From Cylindrospermopsis raciborskii Cr2010 (GTDB taxonomy: Bacteria > Cyanobacteriota > Cyanobacteriia > Cyanobacteriales > Nostocaceae), in assembly GCF_003367075.2 (NCBI RefSeq), contig NZ_CP065936.1:3030001-3062000 (forward strand): 32,000 bases of DNA. The letters are read 5' to 3'. The notes below the pieces were generated by a model. That model was not told where the DNA came from and made no database searches. It saw nothing but the letters and a program-made list of their open reading frames with translations. This document shows, piece after piece, positions 2,181-18,000 of the stretch (positions are counted from its first letter, which is position 1; every line of letters starts with the position of its first letter). The translations under genes were made by a program, and so were the position numbers.

Positions 2181-3614
2181 ATGACAACCCCACAAGAAGT
2201 GTTAAAGATGATCCGAGATCAAAACATTCAAATGATTGATCTCAAGTTCATAGACACACCCGGAACCTGGCAACATCTAACGGTTTACCACAATCAAATT
2301 GACGAAAGTTCTTTCACCAGTGGTGTACCTTTCGATGGTTCTAGTATTAGAGGGTGGAAAGGGATTGAAGAGTCAGATATGACCATGGTGCTGGATGCTA
2401 GCACAGCTTGGATTGACCCTTTCATGCAGGAACCAACTCTCAGCATTATTTGCAGTATTAAAGAACCCCGCACAGATGAGTGGTATAACCGCTGTCCCCG
2501 GGTGATTGCTCAAAAGGCTATAGATTATTTGGGAACTACGGGAATAGGTGATACGGCCTTTTTTGGTCCAGAAGCAGAATTCTTTATCTTTGATGATGTG
2601 CGTTATGACCAAACCGCTAATGAAGGTTACTATCATGTAGACTCTGTGGAAGGTCGTTGGAATACTGGTAGAAAGGGTAAAAATGGGGAAGCTGATGGTC
2701 CTAACCTAGGTTACAAAACCCGCTTTAAGGAAGGTTACTTCCCCGTGCCCCCCACTGATACCTTCCACGACATGCGCACGGAAATGTTGTTGACTATGGC
2801 TAAATGTGGTGTCCCGATTGAAAAACAACACCATGAGGTGGCTACAGGTGGTCAGTGCGAACTTGGATTCCGCTTCGGCAAGTTAATAGAAGCTGCTGAC
2901 TGGTTAATGACCTATAAATATGTAATCAAAAATGTGGCTAGGAAGTACGGTAAGACTGTTACCTTTATGCCTAAACCCATTTTTGGTGATAATGGTTCCG
3001 GTATGCACTGTCACCAGTCTATTTGGAAGGACGGCAAGCCCTTATTTGCTGGTGATAAATATGCCGGTATGAGTGATATGGGTCTTTACTATATCGGTGG
3101 CATTCTTAAACATGCTCCTGCTCTACTAGCGATTACAAACCCAACCACTAACTCTTACAAACGTCTTGTTCCTGGTTACGAAGCACCTGTGAACTTAGCC
3201 TATTCCCAAGGTAACCGTTCTGCTTCCGTACGTATTCCTTTAAGTGGAGACAATCCTAAAGCTAAACGTTTAGAATTCCGCTGCCCTGATGCTACTTCTA
3301 ATCCCTACTTAGCTTTTGCTGCTATGCTTTGTGCTGGTATTGATGGAATTAAGAATAAAATTCATCCTGGCGAACCTTTGGATAAGAACATCTATGAACT
3401 TTCTCCAGAAGAACTGGCTAAGATTCCTTCTACTCCAGGTTCTCTGGAACTAGCTCTGGAAGCACTGGAAAATGATCATGCTTTCTTAACCGAAACAGGT
3501 GTGTTCTCAGAAGATTTCATCCAAAATTGGATTGACTATAAGCTGGTGAATGAGGTCAAGCAGTTGCAGTTACGTCCTCACCCCTACGAATTTTTCCTTT
3601 ATTACGATTGTTAA
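2181..3614 (+). CDS. glnA: Glutamine synthetase type I
   Basis: 477-aa product with GS-I motifs ([41 protein letters not shown]). A strong SD (AGGAG, 2171-2175) precedes the ATG. Confidence 0.97.
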
Positions 3615-3848: not shown

Positions 3849-4049
3849 TTAGCTCATGGTCGCACCACTACGGCTATAAAGACTTTGAGTGGTAGGATCT
3901 ACTTTCCCTTGAATTGGACTCCAATAGTGGCAAGTTTCTTCGGGTAATCCCAACTCTTGGGCAGACCGCATTAACATTGATTGCTGACGGTTTTTAACTT
4001 GTTGGTGTTGACGTACCATTAAAGCACGGGACTTTTCTTGGATAGACAT
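3849..4049 (-). CDS. gifA: Glutamine synthetase inactivating factor IF7
   Basis: The 66-aa product has the core SRALMVRQHQQVKNRQQSMLMRSAQELG, and the C-terminal ...QGK...Y.RS.A..S pattern matches my memory of IF7 (Synechocystis GifA, Anabaena Asl2329). It lies tail-to-tail with glnA, as in Anabaena PCC 7120. Confidence 0.85.
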   Translation of the reverse strand: MSIQEKSRALMVRQHQQVKNRQQSMLMRSAQELGLPEETCHYWSPIQGKVDPTTQSLYSRSGATMS

Positions 4050-4120: not shown

Positions 4121-4134
4121 GTAACTTAAACTAC
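4121..4134 (-). promoter_or_regulatory. NtcA box (GTA-N8-TAC) overlapping the -35 region of the putative gifA promoter, i.e. in repressor position
   Basis: The sequence GTAACTTAAACTAC is a perfect GTA-N8-TAC, 72 nt upstream of the gifA ATG. On the minus strand a TACTAT -10 (4108-4103) starts 12 nt after the box, so the box centre is about 31-32 nt upstream of the predicted TSS. That matches NtcA repression of gif genes rather than activation. Confidence 0.7.
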
Positions 4135-4241: not shown

Positions 4242-5285
4242 ATGTTCAACGACTTGATAAAACTCAGCTATCAAACTTGCCAACAAGGAAAAACTTACTT
4301 TAGTCTGGCTCATAAATTCTTGGGTACGCGAGTTAAAAACCATCTTTACCCTAACTTGAACAAGTCTCAACCAATTTCTCAACAGGCGATCGCAAACCTA
4401 CAAGACAGACTCAATAGGTTATTAGAATCAGATTGGCAAGATGCCCAACAAGGTGTATATCCTTATGATTTACTATTTGACAATTCCTGGTTAGACTTCT
4501 GTTTATACTATCCTGTGATGTGTGTAGATATGCTCCAAGTATGGGAAAGAGCAAACCGTCAGCAATATCAAGATTTTTCCCAACCACAGGAAGAAAATAT
4601 CTATCCCAGCTACTATTTGCAAAACTTTCATCATCAAACAGATGGCTATTTAAGCGACCTTTCTGCCAACTTGTATGACCTGCAGGTAGAAATCCTATTT
4701 AGCGGGACTGGGGACGCCATGAGACGTCGTATTTTATCACCTCTCAAGCATCAAGTGAAAAAATTCTCCAATCATATCCGTATTTTAGATGTAGGTTGTG
4801 GCACTGGCAGAACCATAAAATTACTGAGAGGAGCAATACCTGAAGCATCTCTATTTGGCGTTGATCTATCCCCCAATTACCTGCGCAAAGCCAATCAACT
4901 TCTAGCTGAAAATTATACTGAATTACCCCAGCTCATCCAAGCCAATGCGGAAGAACTACCCTATTTGGATAATTATTTCCATGGGGTAACTAGTGTTTTT
5001 CTGTTTCATGAATTACCAGCAGCAGTGCGACAAACAGTAATTGAACAATGTTTCCGAGTTATTAAACCAGGAGGAGTTTTCATTATTTGTGATTCCATTC
5101 AAACAAGTGATTCTCCTGACCTAGTTGATATAATTAACAACTTCCCTCGCACATTTCATGAACCTTATTATATCAATTATAGTCTTGATGATTTAGTAGC
5201 AAGATTAGAGAAAGCAGGTTTTGAACACGTAGAAACCCAAGTACATTTCTTGAGTAAGTATATAATTGCTTGTAAACCTGTTTGA
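4242..5285 (+). CDS. Class I SAM-dependent methyltransferase
   Basis: 347-aa product with the motif I sequence ILDVGCGTGR, followed by post-I (FGVDLS) and the downstream LKPGGVFII-type motif (VIKPGGVFIICD). The substrate is unknown. Confidence 0.8.
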   Translation: MFNDLIKLSYQTCQQGKTYFSLAHKFLGTRVKNHLYPNLNKSQPISQQAIANLQDRLNRLLESDWQDAQQGVYPYDLLFDNSWLDFCLYYPVMCVDMLQVWERANRQQYQDFSQPQEENIYPSYYLQNFHHQTDGYLSDLSANLYDLQVEILFSGTGDAMRRRILSPLKHQVKKFSNHIRILDVGCGTGRTIKLLRGAIPEASLFGVDLSPNYLRKANQLLAENYTELPQLIQANAEELPYLDNYFHGVTSVFLFHELPAAVRQTVIEQCFRVIKPGGVFIICDSIQTSDSPDLVDIINNFPRTFHEPYYINYSLDDLVARLEKAGFEHVETQVHFLSKYIIACKPV

Positions 5286-5353: not shown

Positions 5354-5705
5354 AGCATTCGGTGTTTAACCCAGGGAGAAGTCAAACCCGAAAATATGGT
5401 CAGAAAATATTTGGTTTGTTGCTGGAGTTCTGTTATCAACTTACGTCAATCTCAACAACCTTGATGCTTTTAGTAGTTACAGAGGTTATTGGGTGAACGT
5501 CAAGCCATTAACTAGTTGTATTTCTGTCAATACAAATCAATTGTGAACCTAAGAACAGAAAATGTAGTGCATTAACTGTGAATGTTTCTGTTATGGAAAG
5601 AGTACAAAAAATTAAACACCCATTAATTTTTTGGCTTTTAGCTGCAAGCAAAGACCCTTGAGGAAGGGCAAATGGTTCAACAAGTAGCTCTTAGGCTAAA
5701 TGTGT

Positions 5706-5939
5706 TTAAGCTAAAGAAATAAATCCCAAAAACTCTATTGACTCTTTGCGTCCACTACCACGGTGGGGTGCTGGTTCCTCGGGTTGATTAGGACTGGGTT
5801 TAGAACTGTCTGCAAGCAGTAAACCCCTTCCGGAATTAGAGGTTGACAACCGCGAAGGATTGGTGAACACAGTTTCGTGATGAAAAGCTAAGGAACCGAG
5901 TATCATACTTGATACTAAAATTGAAATGGCAGCACGCAT
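5706..5939 (-). CDS. patX: PatX-like small RGSGR-motif protein (candidate heterocyst-differentiation inhibitor)
   Basis: The 77-aa product has a hydrophobic N-terminus (MRAAISILVSSMILGSLAF), a Ser/Pro-rich linker (SSKPSPNQPEEPAP) and then HRGSGR, encoded at 5748-5765; I verified those codons by hand. A TCCGGA motif lies 57 nt upstream of the ATG. The genomic neighbourhood (glnA, gifA) matches my memory of asl2332 in Anabaena PCC 7120. Confidence 0.75.
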   Translation of the reverse strand: MRAAISILVSSMILGSLAFHHETVFTNPSRLSTSNSGRGLLLADSSKPSPNQPEEPAPHRGSGRKESIEFLGFISLA

Positions 5940-5996
5940 AGTAGATGTCTATTTTAGAACTCTCTGGTTAACTTATACTTACCTATCACCCATGAA

Positions 5997-6002
5997 TCCG
6001 GA
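5997..6002 (-). promoter_or_regulatory. DIF1-type motif TCCGGA at the -35 position of the patX candidate promoter
   Basis: The minus strand reads TCCGGA-N19-TATAAG (or N17-AGTATA), then about 35 nt to the ATG at 5939. This is the only TCCGGA I saw in an intergenic region of the window. A 6-mer can occur by chance. Confidence 0.5.
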
Positions 6003-6050
6003 CAATTTTGAAGAAATCGATTGACTTAATCTAAATTGAACCACACTCAA

Positions 6051-7841
6051 TCATATTATCTCAATATGTTTTGCAAGAATCCAGCTACCAGAAGAATTTA
6101 AACATCCTCTGATGCAAATCTTGCAATTGCGATTGAGAACTTGCAACTGTTGGTTAACAGATGACTCCAAAGTAACAATTTTCCAAGTTAGAAAAGACAA
6201 TTCCGGGCAATTTGTGATAGTAAACTCGTAATCTTGTTTACCGATTCGATTAAAAATTCCTATCCAACAATCATGGTTTAACTGATTATGTTCATCAATT
6301 GATAAACCTGAAAATGATGGAAATTCAACCAATGGATATCCCCCCCCAGAGGTTAAAATGTTACCACTTGGGGGATAGGTTTCCGGATGATTTAAAATGT
6401 CAATTTGCCACTTCAACCAGTCCGGATGATTTATGGGTAAATTGAATAGGGGAATAACTGCTATAGGTGAGTGCTTATCAGTTAATAAAGCCATTTGTAG
6501 CGTCTTCACTGGTAAATCTCTTGGTTGACAATTCAGCTCACAACAGAGTGCTGCTGCCATACCAGCAGCTTGTCCTATACCCATAACTACAGGTTGAAGT
6601 CTAGTTGCACCGTTAGCAATGTGAGACACGGAAATATTTTTCTCACATACCAGTAAACCATCTATGGATTTAGGGATTAAGGAGGAATATGGAATGGTGA
6701 AAGGAGTACCGGTCCAACGTCCTCCCCAGAGAAGAGACTTAGGTTGTAGGGGAAACTTTATGCCCGGATAGTGATGATCATTGGCATAGTTACCAATAGC
6801 AACCGTATCCTTCATAAGAGGTGCTACGGAACCGTTGGAGAGGGGCAAAAGATCCTGTTCACAGATGGTAGTAACCCCTTGTAAGCGACGACCTTCACGA
6901 AAATAGGGGTGAAGAGCAAAAGCTGGAGATACACTAGGAAAAGCTCCTTGGGCCAGACCATAACGCCTACCGAAACTGGTTTGAATGTAACGGGCGAAGT
7001 TTTGACTGTGCCAGAAACACTCTTGATAGAACTCATTCCTTGCTTTTGACTCTAACAACCGACTAGTTCCTTGACCGTAGTCATTACCACAAATCGGCCA
7101 GTTAATCATAAACCAATTTTGTGGCAAACGTCCATAGTTTAAAAATTTTTCTTTTCCATAGTTTTCCCAAGCTCCTACAAACAAAGCTGGGTCATAATTG
7201 GGTGCGGGAGGAATTTCTGGAGCGAGAACCTCCCCAAAATCCTCCATTATTACCACCCAAGTTGGTGCTTGTATGGGGTATGTTTCTGTGAGGGAGTTAA
7301 AACTGCTGGGGGCGCTGGGTTCTCCCCATTCAGATTGCAATTCCCAACCCCAACGATAAGGCACTTCTCCCAAAGCTAAAACGTCACCTAATTCCGTGCC
7401 ATCCAGAATTATTTGGGCATAAATAGTACAATCTGCAAAATTTACACCTACAATCCGATCTCCCTGGCGTAATACTTCTAGGGGAGTTCTGTAAGTAATC
7501 CATTGTAGATTAGGTAGTTCTTTTACCCAGTCAGCGAAAATTTCCGCTCCCACCTGGGGTTGATAACTAAAAAAGCTCACCCAGCTGTTATTTAGTCCTC
7601 CTGACTGTCGTTTTTGTAACTCCCGGATAAAATCTCCCCACATTCCTGTTTGGAAGGAATTTAATTCATTACCATCGGGTGCACATACACCAGCACTAGT
7701 TAACATCCCTCCCAACCAAGAAAACTCACTCACCAGAATGGTTTCACATCCCCTGCGAGCTGCTTGAATAGCAGCAGTGGTTCCCCCAGCTCCTCCACCC
7801 ACCACTAAAACATCAGTTTTATATATTTTGTCTAAACTCAT
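6051..7841 (-). CDS. FAD-dependent oxidoreductase of unknown substrate (FAD_oxidored-like)
   Basis: It has an N-terminal Rossmann dinucleotide motif, DVLVVGGGAGGTTAAIQAARRG. The track begins at a TTG (7850), but an ATG at 7841 (MSLDKIY...) is the more likely start. About 130 extra C-terminal residues have no motif I recognise. Confidence 0.75.
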   Translation of the reverse strand: MSLDKIYKTDVLVVGGGAGGTTAAIQAARRGCETILVSEFSWLGGMLTSAGVCAPDGNELNSFQTGMWGDFIRELQKRQSGGLNNSWVSFFSYQPQVGAEIFADWVKELPNLQWITYRTPLEVLRQGDRIVGVNFADCTIYAQIILDGTELGDVLALGEVPYRWGWELQSEWGEPSAPSSFNSLTETYPIQAPTWVVIMEDFGEVLAPEIPPAPNYDPALFVGAWENYGKEKFLNYGRLPQNWFMINWPICGNDYGQGTSRLLESKARNEFYQECFWHSQNFARYIQTSFGRRYGLAQGAFPSVSPAFALHPYFREGRRLQGVTTICEQDLLPLSNGSVAPLMKDTVAIGNYANDHHYPGIKFPLQPKSLLWGGRWTGTPFTIPYSSLIPKSIDGLLVCEKNISVSHIANGATRLQPVVMGIGQAAGMAAALCCELNCQPRDLPVKTLQMALLTDKHSPIAVIPLFNLPINHPDWLKWQIDILNHPETYPPSGNILTSGGGYPLVEFPSFSGLSIDEHNQLNHDCWIGIFNRIGKQDYEFTITNCPELSFLTWKIVTLESSVNQQLQVLNRNCKICIRGCLNSSGSWILAKHIEII

Positions 7842-7891
7842 TAAATTCAAAGTTAATTAAAGTTAGTATAGTGAAACATTGTACTCCACAA

Positions 7892-9813: not shown

Positions 9814-10317
9814 TTGATGGATTTGCTAAATAATAACTTTTACCTAGCGAAGCGGAAAATGAAATTAAAAATTCTGAATCTGCTAGTAGTTGGTTTAGTT
9901 ACTTTTGTAGTACTTTCTCCAGGAATTATCATCTTTAATTTAATTTGGGGAAAGCATATAGAGTTAGTTAGAACACAGAATTTGTCTGAAGAATTTACCA
10001 AAATTAATCAGGAGCAAATTAATCAATGTTCTGATCCTTCATTTCTTCAGACTCAGAGTATTAATTATCCCCCATCTCTAGGTGATAGAATAACCGATAA
10101 AAGATTATTGCCAGTCCATAATTTTTTAGGTTCATTATATCAAATAGTCCAAAAATACCAAATTATGACTATTTTACAGTGGTTACTCGTCGCTGTACCT
10201 ATTGGTATTGGTTTGGCAATACTTGTTTACGATAGATATCTGGTTTATCGTAGTGCTGTTTTCAGGGCGCAGGTGGAAATGTTGGAAAGACTTTGGCAAC
10301 AAAGTATAGAACAATAA
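9814..10317 (+). CDS. Hypothetical membrane protein (two predicted TM segments)
   Basis: Hydrophobic stretches at LLVVGLVTFVVLSPGIIIFNLIW and ILQWLLVAVPIGIGLAILVY. The start is uncertain: TTG 9814, ATG 9817 or ATG 9859 (MKLKIL...). Confidence 0.55.
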   Translation: MMDLLNNNFYLAKRKMKLKILNLLVVGLVTFVVLSPGIIIFNLIWGKHIELVRTQNLSEEFTKINQEQINQCSDPSFLQTQSINYPPSLGDRITDKRLLPVHNFLGSLYQIVQKYQIMTILQWLLVAVPIGIGLAILVYDRYLVYRSAVFRAQVEMLERLWQQSIEQ

Positions 10318-10355
10318 TATCTTCCGGTCACTTATTCACCATGAACTAAATTACT

Positions 10356-10598
10356 ATGTCAGAAGAACGCCAAAATCAGTATTTTAATTTGATTGATGAG
10401 TTATTGAAATGTCCTAATGGTCAAGAACCAGAAGTGCTGGAAGCTCAACCAGAACTAATTGATTCTGGTTTGATACATACAATGCTACAAGTTGCAACCA
10501 TGTTTGCCCATGAGGGAAATCAAGATGGAGCGCAATTTTTGTTTTTTATAGCACGAGAATTGGCTAAACAGTTGGGTTTATATCCCGATCTTTCATAG
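10356..10598 (+). CDS. Small hypothetical protein resembling the N-terminal module common on cyanobacterial TPR/CHAT-type proteins
   Basis: The 80-aa product shows the pattern YFNLIDELLKCPNGQEPEVLEAQPELIDSGL...A..LA.QLG. I recognise this from many cyanobacterial proteins; it has no assigned function. Confidence 0.55.
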   Translation: MSEERQNQYFNLIDELLKCPNGQEPEVLEAQPELIDSGLIHTMLQVATMFAHEGNQDGAQFLFFIARELAKQLGLYPDLS

Positions 10599-10619
10599 GA
10601 TTGTAAGTCAGGATTTATT

Positions 10620-10931
10620 ATGCTATTGACTGCAACGGAAGCTGGAAAGATAGCCCTGGAGTTCCTATTAGCTGACTGGAACCTAGCAGAGGAATATCGA
10701 GATTGGTTTACTATTGTTCACTCCCGCTTAATGGGTGAGTATTGGTACACCGTAGAATTGGGTGTTGAGGGGTTCCCAGATCGATGGTTTATTCATGTTT
10801 ATGATTCTGGATCCTGTAACCCCAATTATAGTTTTAAATCCCCTATTTCTGGCACTGATGGCTATGTTGATTTGAAATCTTTACCACCGATTATTGCTGA
10901 TGTTTTGGTAGCTGAAAGGAATTCTCGTTAA
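10620..10931 (+). CDS. Hypothetical protein
   Basis: 103-aa ORF, 21 nt after the previous gene on the same strand, with normal-looking codon usage. No motif recognised. Confidence 0.5.
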   Translation: MLLTATEAGKIALEFLLADWNLAEEYRDWFTIVHSRLMGEYWYTVELGVEGFPDRWFIHVYDSGSCNPNYSFKSPISGTDGYVDLKSLPPIIADVLVAERNSR

Positions 10932-11080
10932 GGGACTTGGGGATCTGGGGTAAGGTCAGATATAAATAATATATAAATTGTCAGGTTTAAATAACAAAAC
11001 TATGTTATGATTATTTTCATAAATAGTGGTGATTAACGCTGATTAACACTGCAAAAATATCCATCAGAAATATCACTCCA

Positions 11081-11416
11081 ATGATTACTGAAGATATCTT
11101 AGCTCAAGAATTTGCCAGAATTGTTGACCATTATTATCCCGATTTGGGGGAAATATTGGCAATCTGTCATGTGAAGGTGGTTACTTCTTTTTGGGGAAGA
11201 CCTCCTAAACGTTTTCAATATGTGGCTATCTATTGTCCTGGGAATGTTATGCCTTTGGTACAATCACAAAGGGCAATTTTGAGAGAGGTGGCAGAAAATA
11301 TGGGTCTAATTCAAGTTGTTTGCATGAATGCTAAACGATTACTACGAGATCCATTATCTAACCTAAAACACTCGCAACCGCGACTATGGTTGGATCTACA
11401 CCTAGTATCGGCATAG
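11081..11416 (+). CDS. Hypothetical protein
   Basis: 111-aa ORF with no recognisable motif. Confidence 0.45.
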   Translation: MITEDILAQEFARIVDHYYPDLGEILAICHVKVVTSFWGRPPKRFQYVAIYCPGNVMPLVQSQRAILREVAENMGLIQVVCMNAKRLLRDPLSNLKHSQPRLWLDLHLVSA

Positions 11417-15067: not shown

Positions 15068-16999
15068 ATGAGTTTGATTACACTACAATTAGTTAAAAAA
15101 GACTTTGGTATTAAAGAGATATTAAAAGAAGCGACCTTTAGTATAGATGGGACTGACAAAGTAGGTTTGATTGGTACTAATGGTTCTGGTAAATCCACAT
15201 TATTAAAGATGATAGCGGGAATAGAGCCAGTAGATGGGGGGCAAATTCTGACTAATTCTGGTGCAAAGATTATCTATCTACCACAACAGCCAGATATGGA
15301 TGAAAATTTGACAGTTTTAGAACAGATATTTATGGATAGTGGTGAACATACAAAATTGGTAAAGGAGTATGAAGAACTTTCAGATAAATTAGCCCATTAT
15401 CCGGAAGATACATTATTAATGTCCAGGTTGTCAGAAGTAATGCAGCGCATGGATGCTACTGGGGCCTGGGAATTAGAAACCAACGCTAAAATTATTCTCA
15501 CAAAATTGGGGATTGGCGACTTTGAGGTGAAAGTTGGGACCTTATCAGGGGGTTATAGAAAACGTATAGCTTTAGCCACAGCACTATTAGCTCAACCAGA
15601 TGTTTTACTCATGGATGAACCAACAAACCATCTGGATGCTTTATCTGTAGAATGGCTACAAAGTTATTTAAACCGGTTTCGAGGAGCTTTGCTGCTGATT
15701 ACTCATGATCGGTATTTTTTGGATAAAGTAACTAATAGAATTATAGAAATTGATAGGGGTGATATTTATACATACTCCGGTAATTATTCCTATTATTTAG
15801 AAAAGAAAGCATTAGCAGAAGAATCTGCTGTAAGCAGTCAACGTAAACATCAAGGGATATTACGAAGGGAACTGGAATGGTTGAAAAGGGGACCTAAAGC
15901 TAGAAGTACTAAGCAAAAAGCCCGAATTCAACGCGTGGAGTCTATGAGAGAAACTCAATTCAAACAAGCTCAAGGTAAAGTTGACATTTCTACCATTGGT
16001 CGGCGGATTGGCAAAAAAGTGATTGAATTGAGTAATATTTACAAATCCTATGACGGAAAAATCCTAATTAATAACTTTAGTTATGAATTTAGTCCGGAAG
16101 ATAGAATTGGCATTATTGGTGGCAATGGTACTGGTAAATCTACCTTGATGAACATGATAACTGGAAGAACTTCACCAGATGCTGGTAGGGTGGAAGTTGG
16201 AAGTACCATTCATATTGCTTACTTTGACCAACATTCGGAAGAGTTAATATCAGCAGTTAATGATAATCAGCGGGTAATTGATTATATCAAAGAAGAGGGA
16301 GAATTTATCAAGATTGCTGATGGGACAAAAATTACAGCTTCTCAAATGTTAGAGAGATTTTTATTTCCTGGGAGCCAACAATATGCGCCTATTCATAAAC
16401 TTTCTGGAGGAGAAAAACGGCGTTTATTTTTATTAAGATTATTAATTAGTGCTCCCAATGTGCTAATTTTAGATGAGCCAACTAATGATTTAGATGTGCA
16501 AACCTTATCGGTTTTAGAAGAATATCTGGAAGACTTTGTGGGATCTGTCATCGTAGTTTCCCATGATCGATATTTTTTAGATCGAACAGTGGATACTATC
16601 TTTGCTCTAGAAGAGGGTGGTAACTTACGTCAATACCCAGGCAATTATTCAGTCTATTTAGATTACAAAAAATCTGAGGAGTTAACCCAACAAGAAACAA
16701 TTAATGGCAAGGATAATCGCAAATCCAAAAACCTCACTCAACCAAAACCTGGTGATCAAGAAGTACAGAATAAAAAACGTCGCCGATTATCCAATTGGGA
16801 AAAACGGGAATTTGAGCAATTGGAAGCTAAAATCGCCGATTTGGAAGCACAAAGAACTCTAGTGGAAACATCATTACTTGCTGTTACATCAGAAAATTAT
16901 ACCCAAGTACAAAACCTCTATGAACAAATGGAAGCGCTTAAACAAGCTATAGATGTTGCCACTGAGCGATGGCTAGAGTTGGCGGAAATGGATGTTTAG
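15068..16999 (+). CDS. ABC-F family ATPase (Uup/YheS-like; two ABC domains and a C-terminal coiled coil)
   Basis: Two Walker A motifs (GTNGSGKST, GGNGTGKST), two signature motifs (LSGGYRKR, LSGGEKRR) and two Walker B motifs (LLMDEPTNHLD, LILDEPTNDLD). There are no TM domains. The C-terminal tail is basic and coiled-coil. Confidence 0.92.
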   Translation: MSLITLQLVKKDFGIKEILKEATFSIDGTDKVGLIGTNGSGKSTLLKMIAGIEPVDGGQILTNSGAKIIYLPQQPDMDENLTVLEQIFMDSGEHTKLVKEYEELSDKLAHYPEDTLLMSRLSEVMQRMDATGAWELETNAKIILTKLGIGDFEVKVGTLSGGYRKRIALATALLAQPDVLLMDEPTNHLDALSVEWLQSYLNRFRGALLLITHDRYFLDKVTNRIIEIDRGDIYTYSGNYSYYLEKKALAEESAVSSQRKHQGILRRELEWLKRGPKARSTKQKARIQRVESMRETQFKQAQGKVDISTIGRRIGKKVIELSNIYKSYDGKILINNFSYEFSPEDRIGIIGGNGTGKSTLMNMITGRTSPDAGRVEVGSTIHIAYFDQHSEELISAVNDNQRVIDYIKEEGEFIKIADGTKITASQMLERFLFPGSQQYAPIHKLSGGEKRRLFLLRLLISAPNVLILDEPTNDLDVQTLSVLEEYLEDFVGSVIVVSHDRYFLDRTVDTIFALEEGGNLRQYPGNYSVYLDYKKSEELTQQETINGKDNRKSKNLTQPKPGDQEVQNKKRRRLSNWEKREFEQLEAKIADLEAQRTLVETSLLAVTSENYTQVQNLYEQMEALKQAIDVATERWLELAEMDV

Positions 17000-17399: not shown

Positions 17400-17864
17400 A
17401 TGCCTAGTGGAATAATTATAAAGGTAAGTAGTTGGTTCCATCGTGACAGAATTGTTCGCAATTTGGAAATTTTTCAGGATATTATTGTTATTTCTCTTTG
17501 TCTTGGGTTATTTTGTGTCATGTTACTAAGGTTAGGGGATATGTTTATTTCCTTTATTCGTCCCCTTGATTTACGGGAAGTAACATCTGATATTCTGTTT
17601 ATTTTAATACTTGTAGAGTTATTTCGACTTTTAGTTGACTATCTGCAAGAACATAATATATCTGTAGGTGCAGCGGTAGAAATTACTATTGTTTCAGCTT
17701 TAAGAGAAATCATTTTGCGTGGAGTGTTGGAAATTCCTAAAGATCAAATTTTTGCTATCTCCATATTCTTATTGATATTATCAAGTGTTTTTATTGCCAT
17801 CCCCTGGATATCTAAAATATTAGGGCACGGCTACTCTAGACCAGATCACCATCAAGAAGGTTAA
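17400..17864 (+). CDS. PsiE-family (phosphate-starvation-inducible) membrane protein
   Basis: The 154-aa product has four hydrophobic segments. The central block ILFILILVELFRLLVDYLQEHNISVGAAVEITIVSALREIILRG parallels the E. coli PsiE core as I remember it. Confidence 0.5.
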   Translation: MPSGIIIKVSSWFHRDRIVRNLEIFQDIIVISLCLGLFCVMLLRLGDMFISFIRPLDLREVTSDILFILILVELFRLLVDYLQEHNISVGAAVEITIVSALREIILRGVLEIPKDQIFAISIFLLILSSVFIAIPWISKILGHGYSRPDHHQEG

Positions 17865-17967
17865 TATCAGCTATTTTGGGATTTGTAAACATCCTTGGGG
17901 AGGATGTAACTAAAAACCAAGTAGGTTAAATTTATTTGGGATGTTGTTATGCACTGGATTTATATTC

Positions 17968-18000
17968 GGGTTTGGTTAACGGCCAAACCCTTTCTATTTT
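17968..18000 (+). terminator. Rho-independent terminator after the PsiE-like gene
   Basis: An 8-bp stem GGGTTTGG / CCAAACCC with a 7-nt loop, followed by TTTCTATTTT. Confidence 0.65.

What the first reader, a model, noticed from the sequence alone, without database searches (positions are those of the whole stretch)
5706..6044. Candidate patX: a small RGSGR-motif protein with a DIF1 (TCCGGA) promoter motif
The 77-aa ORF has all the hallmarks described for the PatX family. It has a hydrophobic N-terminus, a Pro/Ser-rich linker and an HRGSGR motif near the C-terminus (codons 5748-5765). RGSGR is the HetR-binding pentapeptide shared with PatS and HetN. TCCGGA (5997-6002), the DIF1 motif associated with induction in developing heterocysts, lies 57 nt upstream of the ATG, with a TATAAG -10 about 19 nt further downstream. 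Upstream of DIF1 I see only a degenerate NtcA-like GTG-N8-TAG (6031-6044). Genes of this size are routinely left unannotated or called hypothetical. Its position close to glnA and gifA agrees with my memory of asl2332 in Anabaena PCC 7120.
Basis: partly seen in the sequence, partly recalled or inferred. Interest (0 to 1): 0.7.

Follow-up and report, generated by a model that had tools for sequence, protein, structure and literature searches.

The report
Known PatX heterocyst-inhibitor peptide gene

Summary
A 77-aa ORF (5706-5939, minus strand) carries HRGSGR at 5748-5765, and TCCGGA lies at 5997-6002, 57 nt upstream of the ATG. NCBI's curated PatX model scores 77.4 bits against a cutoff of 30. 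The exact protein occurs in Cylindrospermopsis raciborskii genomes and is tagged Pfam PF28278 (PatX). RGSGR is the only RG[ST]GR in the six-frame translation (0.06 expected) and is invariant in every orthologue found. TCCGGA starts at exactly -63 from the ATG in all 85 loci with upstream sequence. The gene order glnA-gifA-methyltransferase-patX-FAD oxidoreductase matches Anabaena PCC 7120. Two refinements. The "degenerate NtcA-like" sequence is the remnant of a canonical NtcA box that other genera keep at -91..-78; here an 11-nt insertion specific to the Cylindrospermopsis/Raphidiopsis clade splits it. Stucken et al. (2010) already flagged this gene as the only RGSGR candidate in the species. 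The presence of hetR rests on the literature, not on a test here. Verdict: already known, low interest. Minor unexplained extras are the lost NtcA box, a divergent allele in non-heterocystous strains, and nucleotide-level invariance of the mRNA 5' end.

The parts
5706..5939 (-). patX coding sequence (77 codons plus stop at 5706-5708)
   Evidence: ORF list. NCBIfam NF047413 PatX, 77.4 bits against cutoff 30. The exact protein is in C. raciborskii assemblies with PF28278. 18 different nucleotide versions encode (H)RGSGR across orthologues, which shows selection at the protein level.
5886..5939 (-). Predicted Sec-type signal peptide (residues 1-18, MRAAISILVSSMILGSLA; likely cleavage after S-L-A)
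   Evidence: Mean hydropathy is 2.09 for residues 3-19. MRAAIS.LVSS is nearly invariant. The PCC 7120 PatX signal sequence was shown to drive export and to be required for activity (PMC12756182). The cleavage site here is inferred; SignalP was not run.
5766..5801 (-). Pro-rich linker KPSPNQPEEPAP (residues 47-58)
   Evidence: K47, P50 and P53 are invariant; P48, N51 and P56 are at least 90% conserved.
5748..5765 (-). HRGSGR (residues 59-64), the predicted HetR-inhibiting hexapeptide
   Evidence: RGSGR is invariant in all orthologues; H59 is conserved in at least 90%. It is the only RG[ST]GR in the six-frame translation. The hexapeptide HRGTGR of PCC 7120 PatX binds HetR with Kd 88 nM and blocks DNA binding (PMC12756182).
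5709..5747 (-). C-terminal tail KESIEFLGFISLA (residues 65-77), hydrophobic and dispensable in some lineages
   Evidence: It lies mostly beyond the protein stretch matched by the NCBIfam profile (residues 1-66). It is absent or replaced in Dolichospermum (…RRGLDG) and in the Raphidiopsis allele (…KESINL).
5997..6002 (-). DIF1 motif TCCGGA, the -35 element of a sigma-HetZ-type promoter
   Evidence: It sits at -63..-58 from the ATG in 85 of 85 loci. Sigma-HetZ recognises T-35 C C G G A-30, and ChIP-seq places sigma-HetZ upstream of patX; that paper concludes patX is directly activated (PMC13342950). Expression from the DIF1 promoter of patX depends on hetZ (PMC7377430).
5976..5979 (-). -10 element AGTA (sigma-HetZ 'TGnA' with the permitted T-13 to A), 17-nt spacer from TCCGGA
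   Evidence: AGTA in 79 of 85 loci, AGGA in 5, AGCA in 1. The composite pattern TCCGGA-N16/17-WGNA matches here. Published mutagenesis shows T-13 can be replaced by A. The sigma-70 consensus scan finds no promoter in 5400-6150.
5966..5968 (-). Predicted transcription start (about 27-29 nt upstream of the ATG)
   Evidence: Inferred from sigma-HetZ geometry (A-10 at 5976; consensus TGNA-N7-9-tsp). Not measured.
5907..5965 (-). 5' leader plus codons 1-11, conserved at the nucleotide level beyond what coding requires
   Evidence: Majority-base fraction is 0.93 for the leader and 0.98 for codons 1-11. Degenerate third positions of codons 2, 3, 5, 6 and 7 are invariant in 72 of 72 unique sequences. 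No structure or pairing explanation was found.
6017..6041 (-). Remnant of an NtcA box split by an ~11-nt insertion (insertion about 6020-6030; 5' half GTT at 6039-6041; 3' half mutated to CGA at 6017-6019)
   Evidence: Other genera have GT-N10-AC at -91..-78 (75 of 85 loci; GTA-N8-TAC in 59). The gapped alignment shows an 11-nt insertion only in C. raciborskii and R. brookii D9, and also in R. curvata NIES-932; C. curvispora has a further 32-nt deletion. NtcA ChIP-seq places a bound region with box GTAGTGCTTTTTAC upstream of asl2332 in PCC 7120.
5644..5669 (-). Terminator-like hairpin and T-rich tail about 37 nt after the stop codon
   Evidence: Consensus scan: GCCCTTCCTCAAGGGT followed by CTTTGCTTGC. 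It implies a monocistronic mRNA of about 320 nt. This is inferred.

Best explanation
The ORF is the patX orthologue of Cylindrospermopsis (Raphidiopsis) raciborskii. The proposed mechanism is as follows; every step after identification is inferred by homology with Anabaena PCC 7120. In cells that start to differentiate, HetR turns on hetZ. The sigma factor HetZ then reads the TCCGGA (-35) / AGTA (-10) promoter and starts a short monocistronic mRNA about 27 nt upstream of the ATG. The 77-aa pre-peptide is exported by Sec through its N-terminal signal sequence. A periplasmic peptidase of the PatP type cuts on both sides of the motif and releases an HRGSGR-containing peptide. That peptide reaches neighbouring cells, binds HetR, stops it binding DNA, and so suppresses differentiation there. 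In this lineage the direct NtcA input that other genera have at this promoter appears to be lost. According to a published genome analysis, PatX may also be the only source of the RGSGR signal, because patS, hetN and hetL are reported absent.
For: Identity: NF047413 PatX equivalog, 77.4 bits against cutoff 30, full-length match. Homologues are named PatX and carry PF28278. RGSGR is invariant and H59, the signal-peptide-like N-terminus and the Pro linker are conserved. RGSGR is kept through 18 synonymous codon combinations. Promoter: TCCGGA at exactly -63 in 85 of 85 loci and AGTA at -40..-37 in 79 of 85, matching the published sigma-HetZ consensus TCCGGA-N16-17-TGnA with the allowed T-13 to A. 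No sigma-70 promoter is present. Synteny: the FAD oxidoreductase lies directly upstream in 84 of 86 loci and gifA/glnA lie downstream in about 60 of 86, the same order as asl2332 in PCC 7120. Mechanism in the model strain: export is required for activity, PatP cleaves PatX, and HRGTGR binds HetR with Kd 88 nM. Expression from the patX DIF1 promoter depends on hetZ, and ChIP-seq places sigma-HetZ upstream of patX. Host context from the literature: hetR, hetZ and patU3 are present in CS-505 and D9; patS, hetN and hetL are absent; this gene (CRC_02157/CRD_02133) was proposed as the RGSGR source. hetR is reported in all 8 compared genomes.
Against: Nothing contradicts the identification. The limits are these. 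No expression, export, processing or HetR-binding data exist for this organism. hetR, hetZ, patU and patP could not be checked in the same assembly: two HetR searches did not bring the C. raciborskii HetR into the 120 listed hits, and hetR is not in the window. The NtcA box that PCC 7120 and most genera have is disrupted here, so regulation may differ. Abreu et al. report a 'hetN' in these genomes, contradicting Stucken et al., so 'sole RGSGR source' is uncertain. The local Pfam copy gave no hit; PF28278 appears only in precomputed annotations.
Confidence: 0.9

Rival explanations
1. It is a true patX orthologue, but in this lineage the PatX-HetR module mainly controls something other than intercalary heterocyst spacing. 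Candidates are confining differentiation to trichome ends, or an older filament-level function such as akinete formation, necridia or fragmentation control. This refines the main explanation and is not exclusive of it.
For: C. raciborskii forms only terminal heterocytes. Non-heterocystous, nif- and hgl-less strains (D9, CENA303, R. curvata NIES-932) still keep an intact patX ORF with RGSGR, TCCGGA and AGTA. The NtcA box that links patX to nitrogen status in other genera is split here. The literature already proposes a pre-heterocyst role for PatX in filamentous cyanobacteria.
Against: Cylindrospermum and Richelia sinica, which I take from general knowledge to form terminal heterocysts, keep the NtcA box, so its loss does not track the terminal pattern. 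The sigma-HetZ promoter, which drives (pro)heterocyst-specific expression in the model strain, is fully intact. There are no functional data for this organism.
Confidence: 0.25
2. It is a decaying relic: a patX remnant no longer under selection in a streamlined genome with simplified patterning.
For: dN/dS between the window and R. brookii D9 is 0.38 for patX, against 0.01-0.20 for eight... seven flanking genes. The NtcA box is lost. The Raphidiopsis allele has H59Y and a rearranged 3' end.
Against: The 77-aa protein is 100% identical in C. raciborskii assemblies and runs from many sources (73 contigs, 168 index blocks). The ORF, RGSGR, TCCGGA and AGTA are intact in all four species-level lineages of the clade. 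dN/dS is still well below 1 and rests on only about 21 substitutions.
Confidence: 0.04
3. It is a chance ORF that happens to contain RGSGR next to a chance TCCGGA.
For: TCCGGA alone is not rare (8 in the window against 3.9 expected). Short ORFs abound.
Against: RG[ST]GR is expected 0.06 times in six frames. The curated HMM hit has E=1e-21. The ORF, motif and promoter geometry are conserved in more than 80 loci.
Confidence: 0.005

Closest known systems
PatX (Asl2332) of Anabaena/Nostoc sp. PCC 7120 (Elhai & Khudyakov 2018; Khudyakov et al. 2020; Xu et al. 2025)
   Same: 77 aa. N-terminal Sec-type signal sequence, Pro-rich linker, H-R-G-(S/T)-G-R close to the C-terminus and a short tail. DIF1 (TCCGGA) -35 promoter. 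The same neighbours (glnA, gifA, methyltransferase downstream; FAD oxidoreductase upstream).
   Different: The motif is RGSGR here and RGTGR in PCC 7120. The NtcA box upstream of DIF1, which is bound by NtcA in PCC 7120 ChIP-seq, is split here by an 11-nt insertion. hetR is about 7 genes away in PCC 7120 but is not within this 32-kb window. The host reportedly lacks the partner systems patS, hetN and hetL.
CRC_02157 (C. raciborskii CS-505) / CRD_02133 (R. brookii D9), proposed as 'patS-like' by Stucken et al. 2010
   Same: By description this is the same gene in sister strains: the only CDS in those genomes with RGSGR in the C-terminal region.
   Different: It was named before the PatX family was defined. 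I did not retrieve the CS-505 sequence itself. The D9 allele (L007) is 70 aa with YRGSGR and a replaced C-terminus.
PatS
   Same: It supplies an RGSGR peptide that inhibits HetR and is transcribed from a DIF1/sigma-HetZ promoter.
   Different: PatS is a 13-17-aa peptide with RGSGR at its very C-terminus and no signal peptide. Here the protein is 77 aa, has a signal peptide, and has 13 residues after the motif.
HetN
   Same: It contains an internal RGSGR required for patterning.
   Different: From general knowledge, HetN is a protein of about 287 aa in the short-chain dehydrogenase family, expressed late. It shows no sequence or size resemblance to this ORF.

Membership tests
PatX | Scores above the curated cutoff of the family HMM (NCBIfam NF047413 equivalog; Pfam PF28278) | tested here: met
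   77.4 bits against cutoff 30, E=1e-21, profile positions 1-68 of 69. PF28278 is precomputed for the exact protein. The local Pfam copy returned no hit.
PatX | Small protein with an RG(S/T)GR pentapeptide near, but not at, the C-terminus | tested here: met
   77 aa, RGSGR at residues 60-64 with 13 residues after it. The motif is invariant in orthologues.
PatX | N-terminal hydrophobic Sec-type signal sequence | tested here: met
   Hydropathy is 2.09 over residues 3-19. There is a basic residue at position 2 and an S-L-A motif before F19. The segment aligns with the experimentally exported PCC 7120 signal region. No dedicated signal-peptide predictor was available.
PatX | Pro-rich segment preceding the motif | tested here: met
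   KPSPNQPEEPAP, with invariant K47, P50 and P53.
PatX | DIF1 (TCCGGA) promoter at -35 in heterocyst-forming species | tested here: met
   TCCGGA at -63..-58 in 85 of 85 loci, with AGTA 17 nt downstream. The TSS itself was not measured.
PatX | Co-occurrence with hetR in the same genome | not testable with these tools
   hetR is not in the window or its flanks, and the C. raciborskii HetR was not among the listed hits. The literature reports hetR in CS-505, D9 and six further C. raciborskii genomes.
PatX | Conserved genomic position | tested here: met
   FAD oxidoreductase upstream in 84 of 86 loci; gifA, glnA and apcB-like downstream in 59-61 of 86. The order matches PCC 7120.
PatX | Suppresses heterocyst differentiation through HetR in an RG(S/T)GR-dependent way | not testable with these tools
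   This needs overexpression or peptide-binding experiments. It has been shown for PCC 7120 PatX.
PatS | 13-17-aa peptide ending in RGSGR, with no signal peptide | tested here: not met
   77 aa, internal motif, hydrophobic N-terminus.
HetN | Short-chain dehydrogenase/ketoacyl-reductase fold of about 287 aa with an internal RGSGR | tested here: not met
   There is no SDR family hit; the only family hit is PatX.

The most novel reading that the evidence does not exclude
In the Cylindrospermopsis/Raphidiopsis clade, patX is possibly the only source of the HetR-inhibiting peptide. An 11-nt insertion that splits the otherwise conserved NtcA box has uncoupled it from direct NtcA (nitrogen-status) activation, leaving purely sigma-HetZ-driven expression. 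This rewiring would contribute to the clade's unusual terminal-only heterocyst placement. A related possibility is that the nucleotide-level invariance of the leader and first 11 codons across Nostocales marks an undescribed post-transcriptional control of patX.
Probability: 0.12. Interest if true: 0.55.

Novelty: already known. Interest (0 to 1): 0.2.

Why it matters
As an identification it matters little. PatX is a defined family with curated NCBIfam and Pfam models, and this very gene was singled out in C. raciborskii in 2010. Its practical value is as a correct annotation where older records say 'hypothetical protein', and where one record starts the ORF at Met12. The by-products could interest people working on heterocyst patterning. 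This bloom-forming species makes only terminal heterocysts and reportedly lacks patS, hetN and hetL, so PatX may carry the whole inhibitory signal. Its promoter has lost the NtcA box that is bound in the model strain. Non-heterocystous relatives carry a distinct allele (H59Y, new C-terminus). The patX mRNA 5' end is constrained at synonymous sites across the order for reasons not yet explained.

Tried and rejected
1. TATAAG (5972-5977) as the -10 box. It is not conserved (TATCAG in most genera). The conserved element is AGTA with a 17-nt spacer, which fits sigma-HetZ.

2. GTG-N8-TAG (6031-6044) as an NtcA site. It lacks the essential AC half and is not conserved in D9. It overlaps the displaced 5' half of the ancestral box.

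3. Direct proof of hetR in the host. Two whole-database HetR searches (PCC 7120-like query and T. azollae query) listed 120 hits each with no C. raciborskii entry. tblastn found no hetR in the window or in the C. raciborskii flanks. I fell back on the literature.

4. RNA structure in the conserved 5' region. The fold is no better than shuffles (z=0.44). A stem of 13 positions, 11 of them paired, that would put the AUG in the loop (5945-5957 / 5915-5927) is specific to this species: 8-11 of 13 pairs form elsewhere, without compensatory changes. The leader near-palindrome AGAGTTCTA/TAGACATCT also degrades without compensation.

5. Pairing of the patX 5' region with the heterocyst sRNA in the same window. 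It is weaker than random controls.

6. The second TCCGGA inside the CDS (5829-5834) and the two other TCCGGA-N16/17-WGNA matches (6421-6446 +, 15379-15405 -). They lie inside or antisense to coding regions and I treat them as chance; their conservation was not checked.

7. The antisense ORF 5926-6024 (+). By inspection of the consensus, it is not conserved: there is a stop after 18 codons in other genera.

8. Terminal-heterocyst habit as the cause of the NtcA-box loss. Cylindrospermum and Richelia sinica keep the box.

9. The local Pfam scan of the ORF gave no hit.

10. Neither the PCC 7120 patX promoter sequence nor Elhai & Khudyakov 2018 could be obtained.

Full report
**Observation.** The minus strand of the window holds a 77-codon ORF at 5706-5939 encoding MRAAISILVSSMILGSLAFHHETVFTNPSRLSTSNSGRGLLLADSSKPSPNQPEEPAPHRGSGRKESIEFLGFISLA.
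- HRGSGR occupies residues 59-64 (5748-5765).
- TCCGGA is at 5997-6002, with 57 nt between it and the ATG.
- TATAAG is at 5972-5977 and GTG-N8-TAG at 6031-6044.
- RG[ST]GR occurs only once in the six-frame translation of the 32 kb, where residue frequencies predict 0.06.
- TCCGGA by itself is unremarkable (8 sites against 3.9 expected). Its significance comes from comparison with other genomes.

**Identity.**
- NCBI's curated equivalog model NF047413, 'heterocyst-inhibiting protein PatX', matches the ORF end to end (profile 1-68 of 69) at 77.4 bits against a cutoff of 30, E=1e-21.
- A whole-database search returned 26 relatives, all carrying the precomputed Pfam family PF28278. Several are named PatX.
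- The 100%-identical cluster comes from Cylindrospermopsis raciborskii, where older records such as strain S07 call it 'hypothetical protein'.
- The exact protein is encoded in at least five NCBI C. raciborskii assemblies with the same gene order as the window.
- The local Pfam copy gave no hit.
- In an alignment of 22 homologues, RGSGR, K47, P50 and P53 are invariant. H59 and the N-terminal MRAAIS.LVSS are at least 90% conserved.
- Across 77 unique coding sequences, (H)RGSGR is encoded by 18 different codon combinations, so the peptide is what is selected.
- Residues 3-19 are strongly hydrophobic (mean Kyte-Doolittle 2.09), preceded by Arg2 and followed by S-L-A|F. This is the layout of a Sec signal peptide.

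**Context.**
- The window reads glmU, apcB-like, glnA (2181-3614), gifA/IF7A (3849-4049, minus strand), a methyltransferase (4242-5285), patX, an FAD-dependent oxidoreductase (6051-7850, minus strand) and recQ.
- Published descriptions of PCC 7120 give the same order: alr2328 glnA, asl2329 gifA, alr2331, asl2332 patX, all2333 (PMC7761841; Picossi 2014 supplement).
- A scan of one genome per species returned 80 loci across Nostocales.
- The FAD oxidoreductase lies directly upstream on the same strand in 84 of 86 loci. gifA, glnA and the apcB-like gene lie downstream in 59-61 of 86.
- In Dolichospermum, Cuspidothrix and Aphanizomenon, hetR itself lies about 5 kb downstream of patX.
- hetR is not in this window.

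**Promoter.**
- TCCGGA starts at exactly -63 from the ATG in all 85 loci with enough upstream sequence (75 unique sequences). There is not a single indel between about -77 and the ATG.
Within it, AGTA at -40..-37 (window 5976-5979) is present in 79 of 85 loci; AGGA occurs in 5 and AGCA in 1.
- This fits the promoter recognised by HetZ, recently shown to be a sigma factor. The published consensus is TCCGGA-N16-17-TGnA-N7-9-tsp, where T-35..A-30 is the DIF1 motif and T-13 can be replaced by A (PMC13342950).
- In Anabaena 7120, sigma-HetZ was found upstream of patX by ChIP-seq, and expression from the DIF1 promoter of patX depends on hetZ.
- The composite pattern occurs three times in the window against 0.58 expected. 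Only the patX instance lies at a conserved intergenic position.
- A sigma-70 consensus scan finds nothing in 5400-6150, and it finds a terminator-like hairpin at 5669-5654.
- I therefore predict a start at about 5966-5968 and a monocistronic mRNA of about 320 nt. This is inferred, not measured.

**NtcA box.**
- Other genera carry GT-N10-AC at -91..-78 (75 of 85 loci; the full GTA-N8-TAC in 59).
- In PCC 7120, NtcA ChIP-seq lists a bound region directly upstream of asl2332, classed 'ACTIVATED', with TSS 2811259 and box GTAGTGCTTTTTAC. So the box is a genuine NtcA site in the model strain.
- All C. raciborskii copies and R. brookii D9 lack it. A gapped alignment shows an 11-nt insertion (about 6020-6030) that separates the 5' half (GTT, 6039-6041) from a mutated 3' half (CGA, 6017-6019).
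- R. curvata NIES-932 shares the insertion, and C. curvispora has an additional 32-nt deletion there.
- As a control, the window keeps canonical boxes at glnA (GTAACAAACAATAC, 2038-2051) and gifA (GTAGTTTAAGTTAC, 4121-4134, minus strand), both close to the PCC 7120 boxes.
- The loss does not track the terminal-heterocyst habit in general. Cylindrospermum and Richelia sinica, which I take from general knowledge to form terminal heterocysts, keep the box.

**How it most likely works.** What is shown here is the orthology, the architecture and the promoter geometry. The rest is inferred from PCC 7120:
- The PatX signal sequence drives export, and export is required for activity.
- The periplasmic peptidase PatP (Alr1666) cleaves on both sides of the motif.
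- The hexapeptide HRGTGR binds HetR with Kd 88 nM and abolishes its DNA binding (PMC12756182).
- Applied here: sigma-HetZ transcribes patX in differentiating cells, the pre-peptide is exported and processed, and an HRGSGR peptide inhibits HetR in neighbouring cells.

**Host.**
- Stucken et al. (2010) found hetR (CRC_03184), hetZ and patU3 in C. raciborskii CS-505 and in D9. They found no patS, hetN, hetL, hetC or ccbP.
- They proposed the single CDS with a C-terminal-region RGSGR (CRC_02157 / CRD_02133) as the likely PatS substitute. By description that is this gene.
- Abreu et al. (2018) found hetR in all eight genomes compared, but they also report 'hetN', which conflicts with Stucken et al..
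- I could not confirm hetR in the same assembly. Two HetR searches listed 120 hits each without the C. raciborskii protein.

**Comparison and novelty.**
- The ORF meets every PatX feature that could be tested here: HMM score, size and motif position, signal peptide, Pro linker, DIF1 promoter and synteny.
- It fails the defining features of PatS (a 13-17-aa peptide ending in RGSGR) and of HetN (an SDR-family protein).
- It differs from PCC 7120 PatX in having RGSGR rather than RGTGR, in the split NtcA box, and in not being linked to hetR.
- The family is defined and curated, and this gene was flagged in this species in 2010.

**Side observations.**
- Non-heterocystous strains (D9, CENA303, R. 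curvata NIES-932; CENA303 and D9 lack nif and hgl) share a 70-aa allele. It has H59Y and a 3' rearrangement that replaces the last eight codons with NL-stop and shortens the gap to the methyltransferase gene from 421 to 149 nt. RGSGR, TCCGGA and AGTA are retained.
- dN/dS between the window and D9 is 0.38 for patX, against 0.01-0.20 for seven neighbouring genes.
- The leader (-26..-1) and codons 1-11 are conserved at the nucleotide level beyond what coding requires. Degenerate third positions of codons 2, 3, 5, 6 and 7 are invariant in 72 of 72 unique sequences.
- I found no RNA structure, palindrome covariation or sRNA pairing that explains this invariance.
- Rfam detects a heterocyst sRNA family member at 17938-17993.

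Noticed in passing
window 17938-17993 (+): Rfam RF02596 'Cyanobacteria heterocyst sRNA' matches over its full length at 71.2 bits (gathering score 35.7). It lies between a PsiE-like ORF (17400-17864) and thrC. There is no exact TCCGGA within about 60 nt upstream; instead there is an inverted repeat CATCCTTGGGGAGGATG at 17890-17906.
   Followed up: partly
window 6017-6041 (-); L007, L087, L091: An 11-nt insertion specific to the Cylindrospermopsis/Raphidiopsis clade splits the NtcA box (GT-N10-AC) that 75 of 85 patX loci keep at -91..-78, and that NtcA binds in PCC 7120 by ChIP-seq. C. curvispora has a further 32-nt deletion at the same place. The glnA and gifA boxes in the same window are intact.
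   Followed up: yes
L007 6001-6213 (R. brookii D9), L087 6001-6213 (R. curvata NIES-932), P0004 (CENA303): Strains that do not form heterocysts share a 70-aa patX allele. It has H59Y (YRGSGR) and a 3' rearrangement that replaces the last 8 codons with NL-stop and removes about 270 nt of downstream spacer. The motif and the sigma-HetZ promoter are retained. dN/dS against the window allele is 0.38, compared with 0.01-0.20 for neighbouring genes.
   Followed up: partly
window 5907-5965 (-), and the same segment in 72 unique orthologous sequences: The 26-nt leader and codons 1-11 of patX are almost invariant at the nucleotide level across Nostocales, including fourfold-degenerate third positions. 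Codons 12-25 vary normally. No RNA structure, palindrome covariation or pairing with the local heterocyst sRNA explains this.
   Followed up: partly
L091 5968-6201 (C. curvispora CP060822.1): The NCBI gene call for PatX starts at Met12 (66 aa), but the full 77-codon ORF from the conserved ATG is intact. This is probably a start-codon mis-annotation.
   Followed up: yes
window 6051-7850 (-) and 84 of 86 related loci: An FAD-dependent oxidoreductase (PF12831; all2333 in PCC 7120) lies immediately upstream of patX on the same strand in almost every locus, ending about 110 nt before the patX ATG. This adjacency is much more constant than the downstream neighbourhood. Its function is unknown.
   Followed up: no
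L023, L025, L027, L032-L034, L037, L041, L045: In Dolichospermum, Cuspidothrix and Aphanizomenon, hetR lies about 5 kb downstream of patX on the same strand, replacing the methyltransferase-gifA-glnA neighbourhood. In C. raciborskii the two genes are unlinked: there is no hetR within the 32-kb window or the fetched flanks.
   Followed up: partly
window 9814-11416 (+): A run of small ORFs (167, 80, 103 and 111 aa) has no family hit. They were found by tblastn only in the C. raciborskii loci. R. curvata NIES-932 has different genes at this position next to recQ (KAP NTPase, cupin), so this is a variable region.
   Followed up: no
literature: PMC2821919 versus PMC5834425: Stucken et al. 2010 report hetN absent from CS-505 and D9. 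Abreu et al. 2018 report hetN present in all eight Cylindrospermopsis/Raphidiopsis genomes. Whether the latter 'hetN' carries RGSGR decides whether PatX is the only inhibitor source.
   Followed up: no
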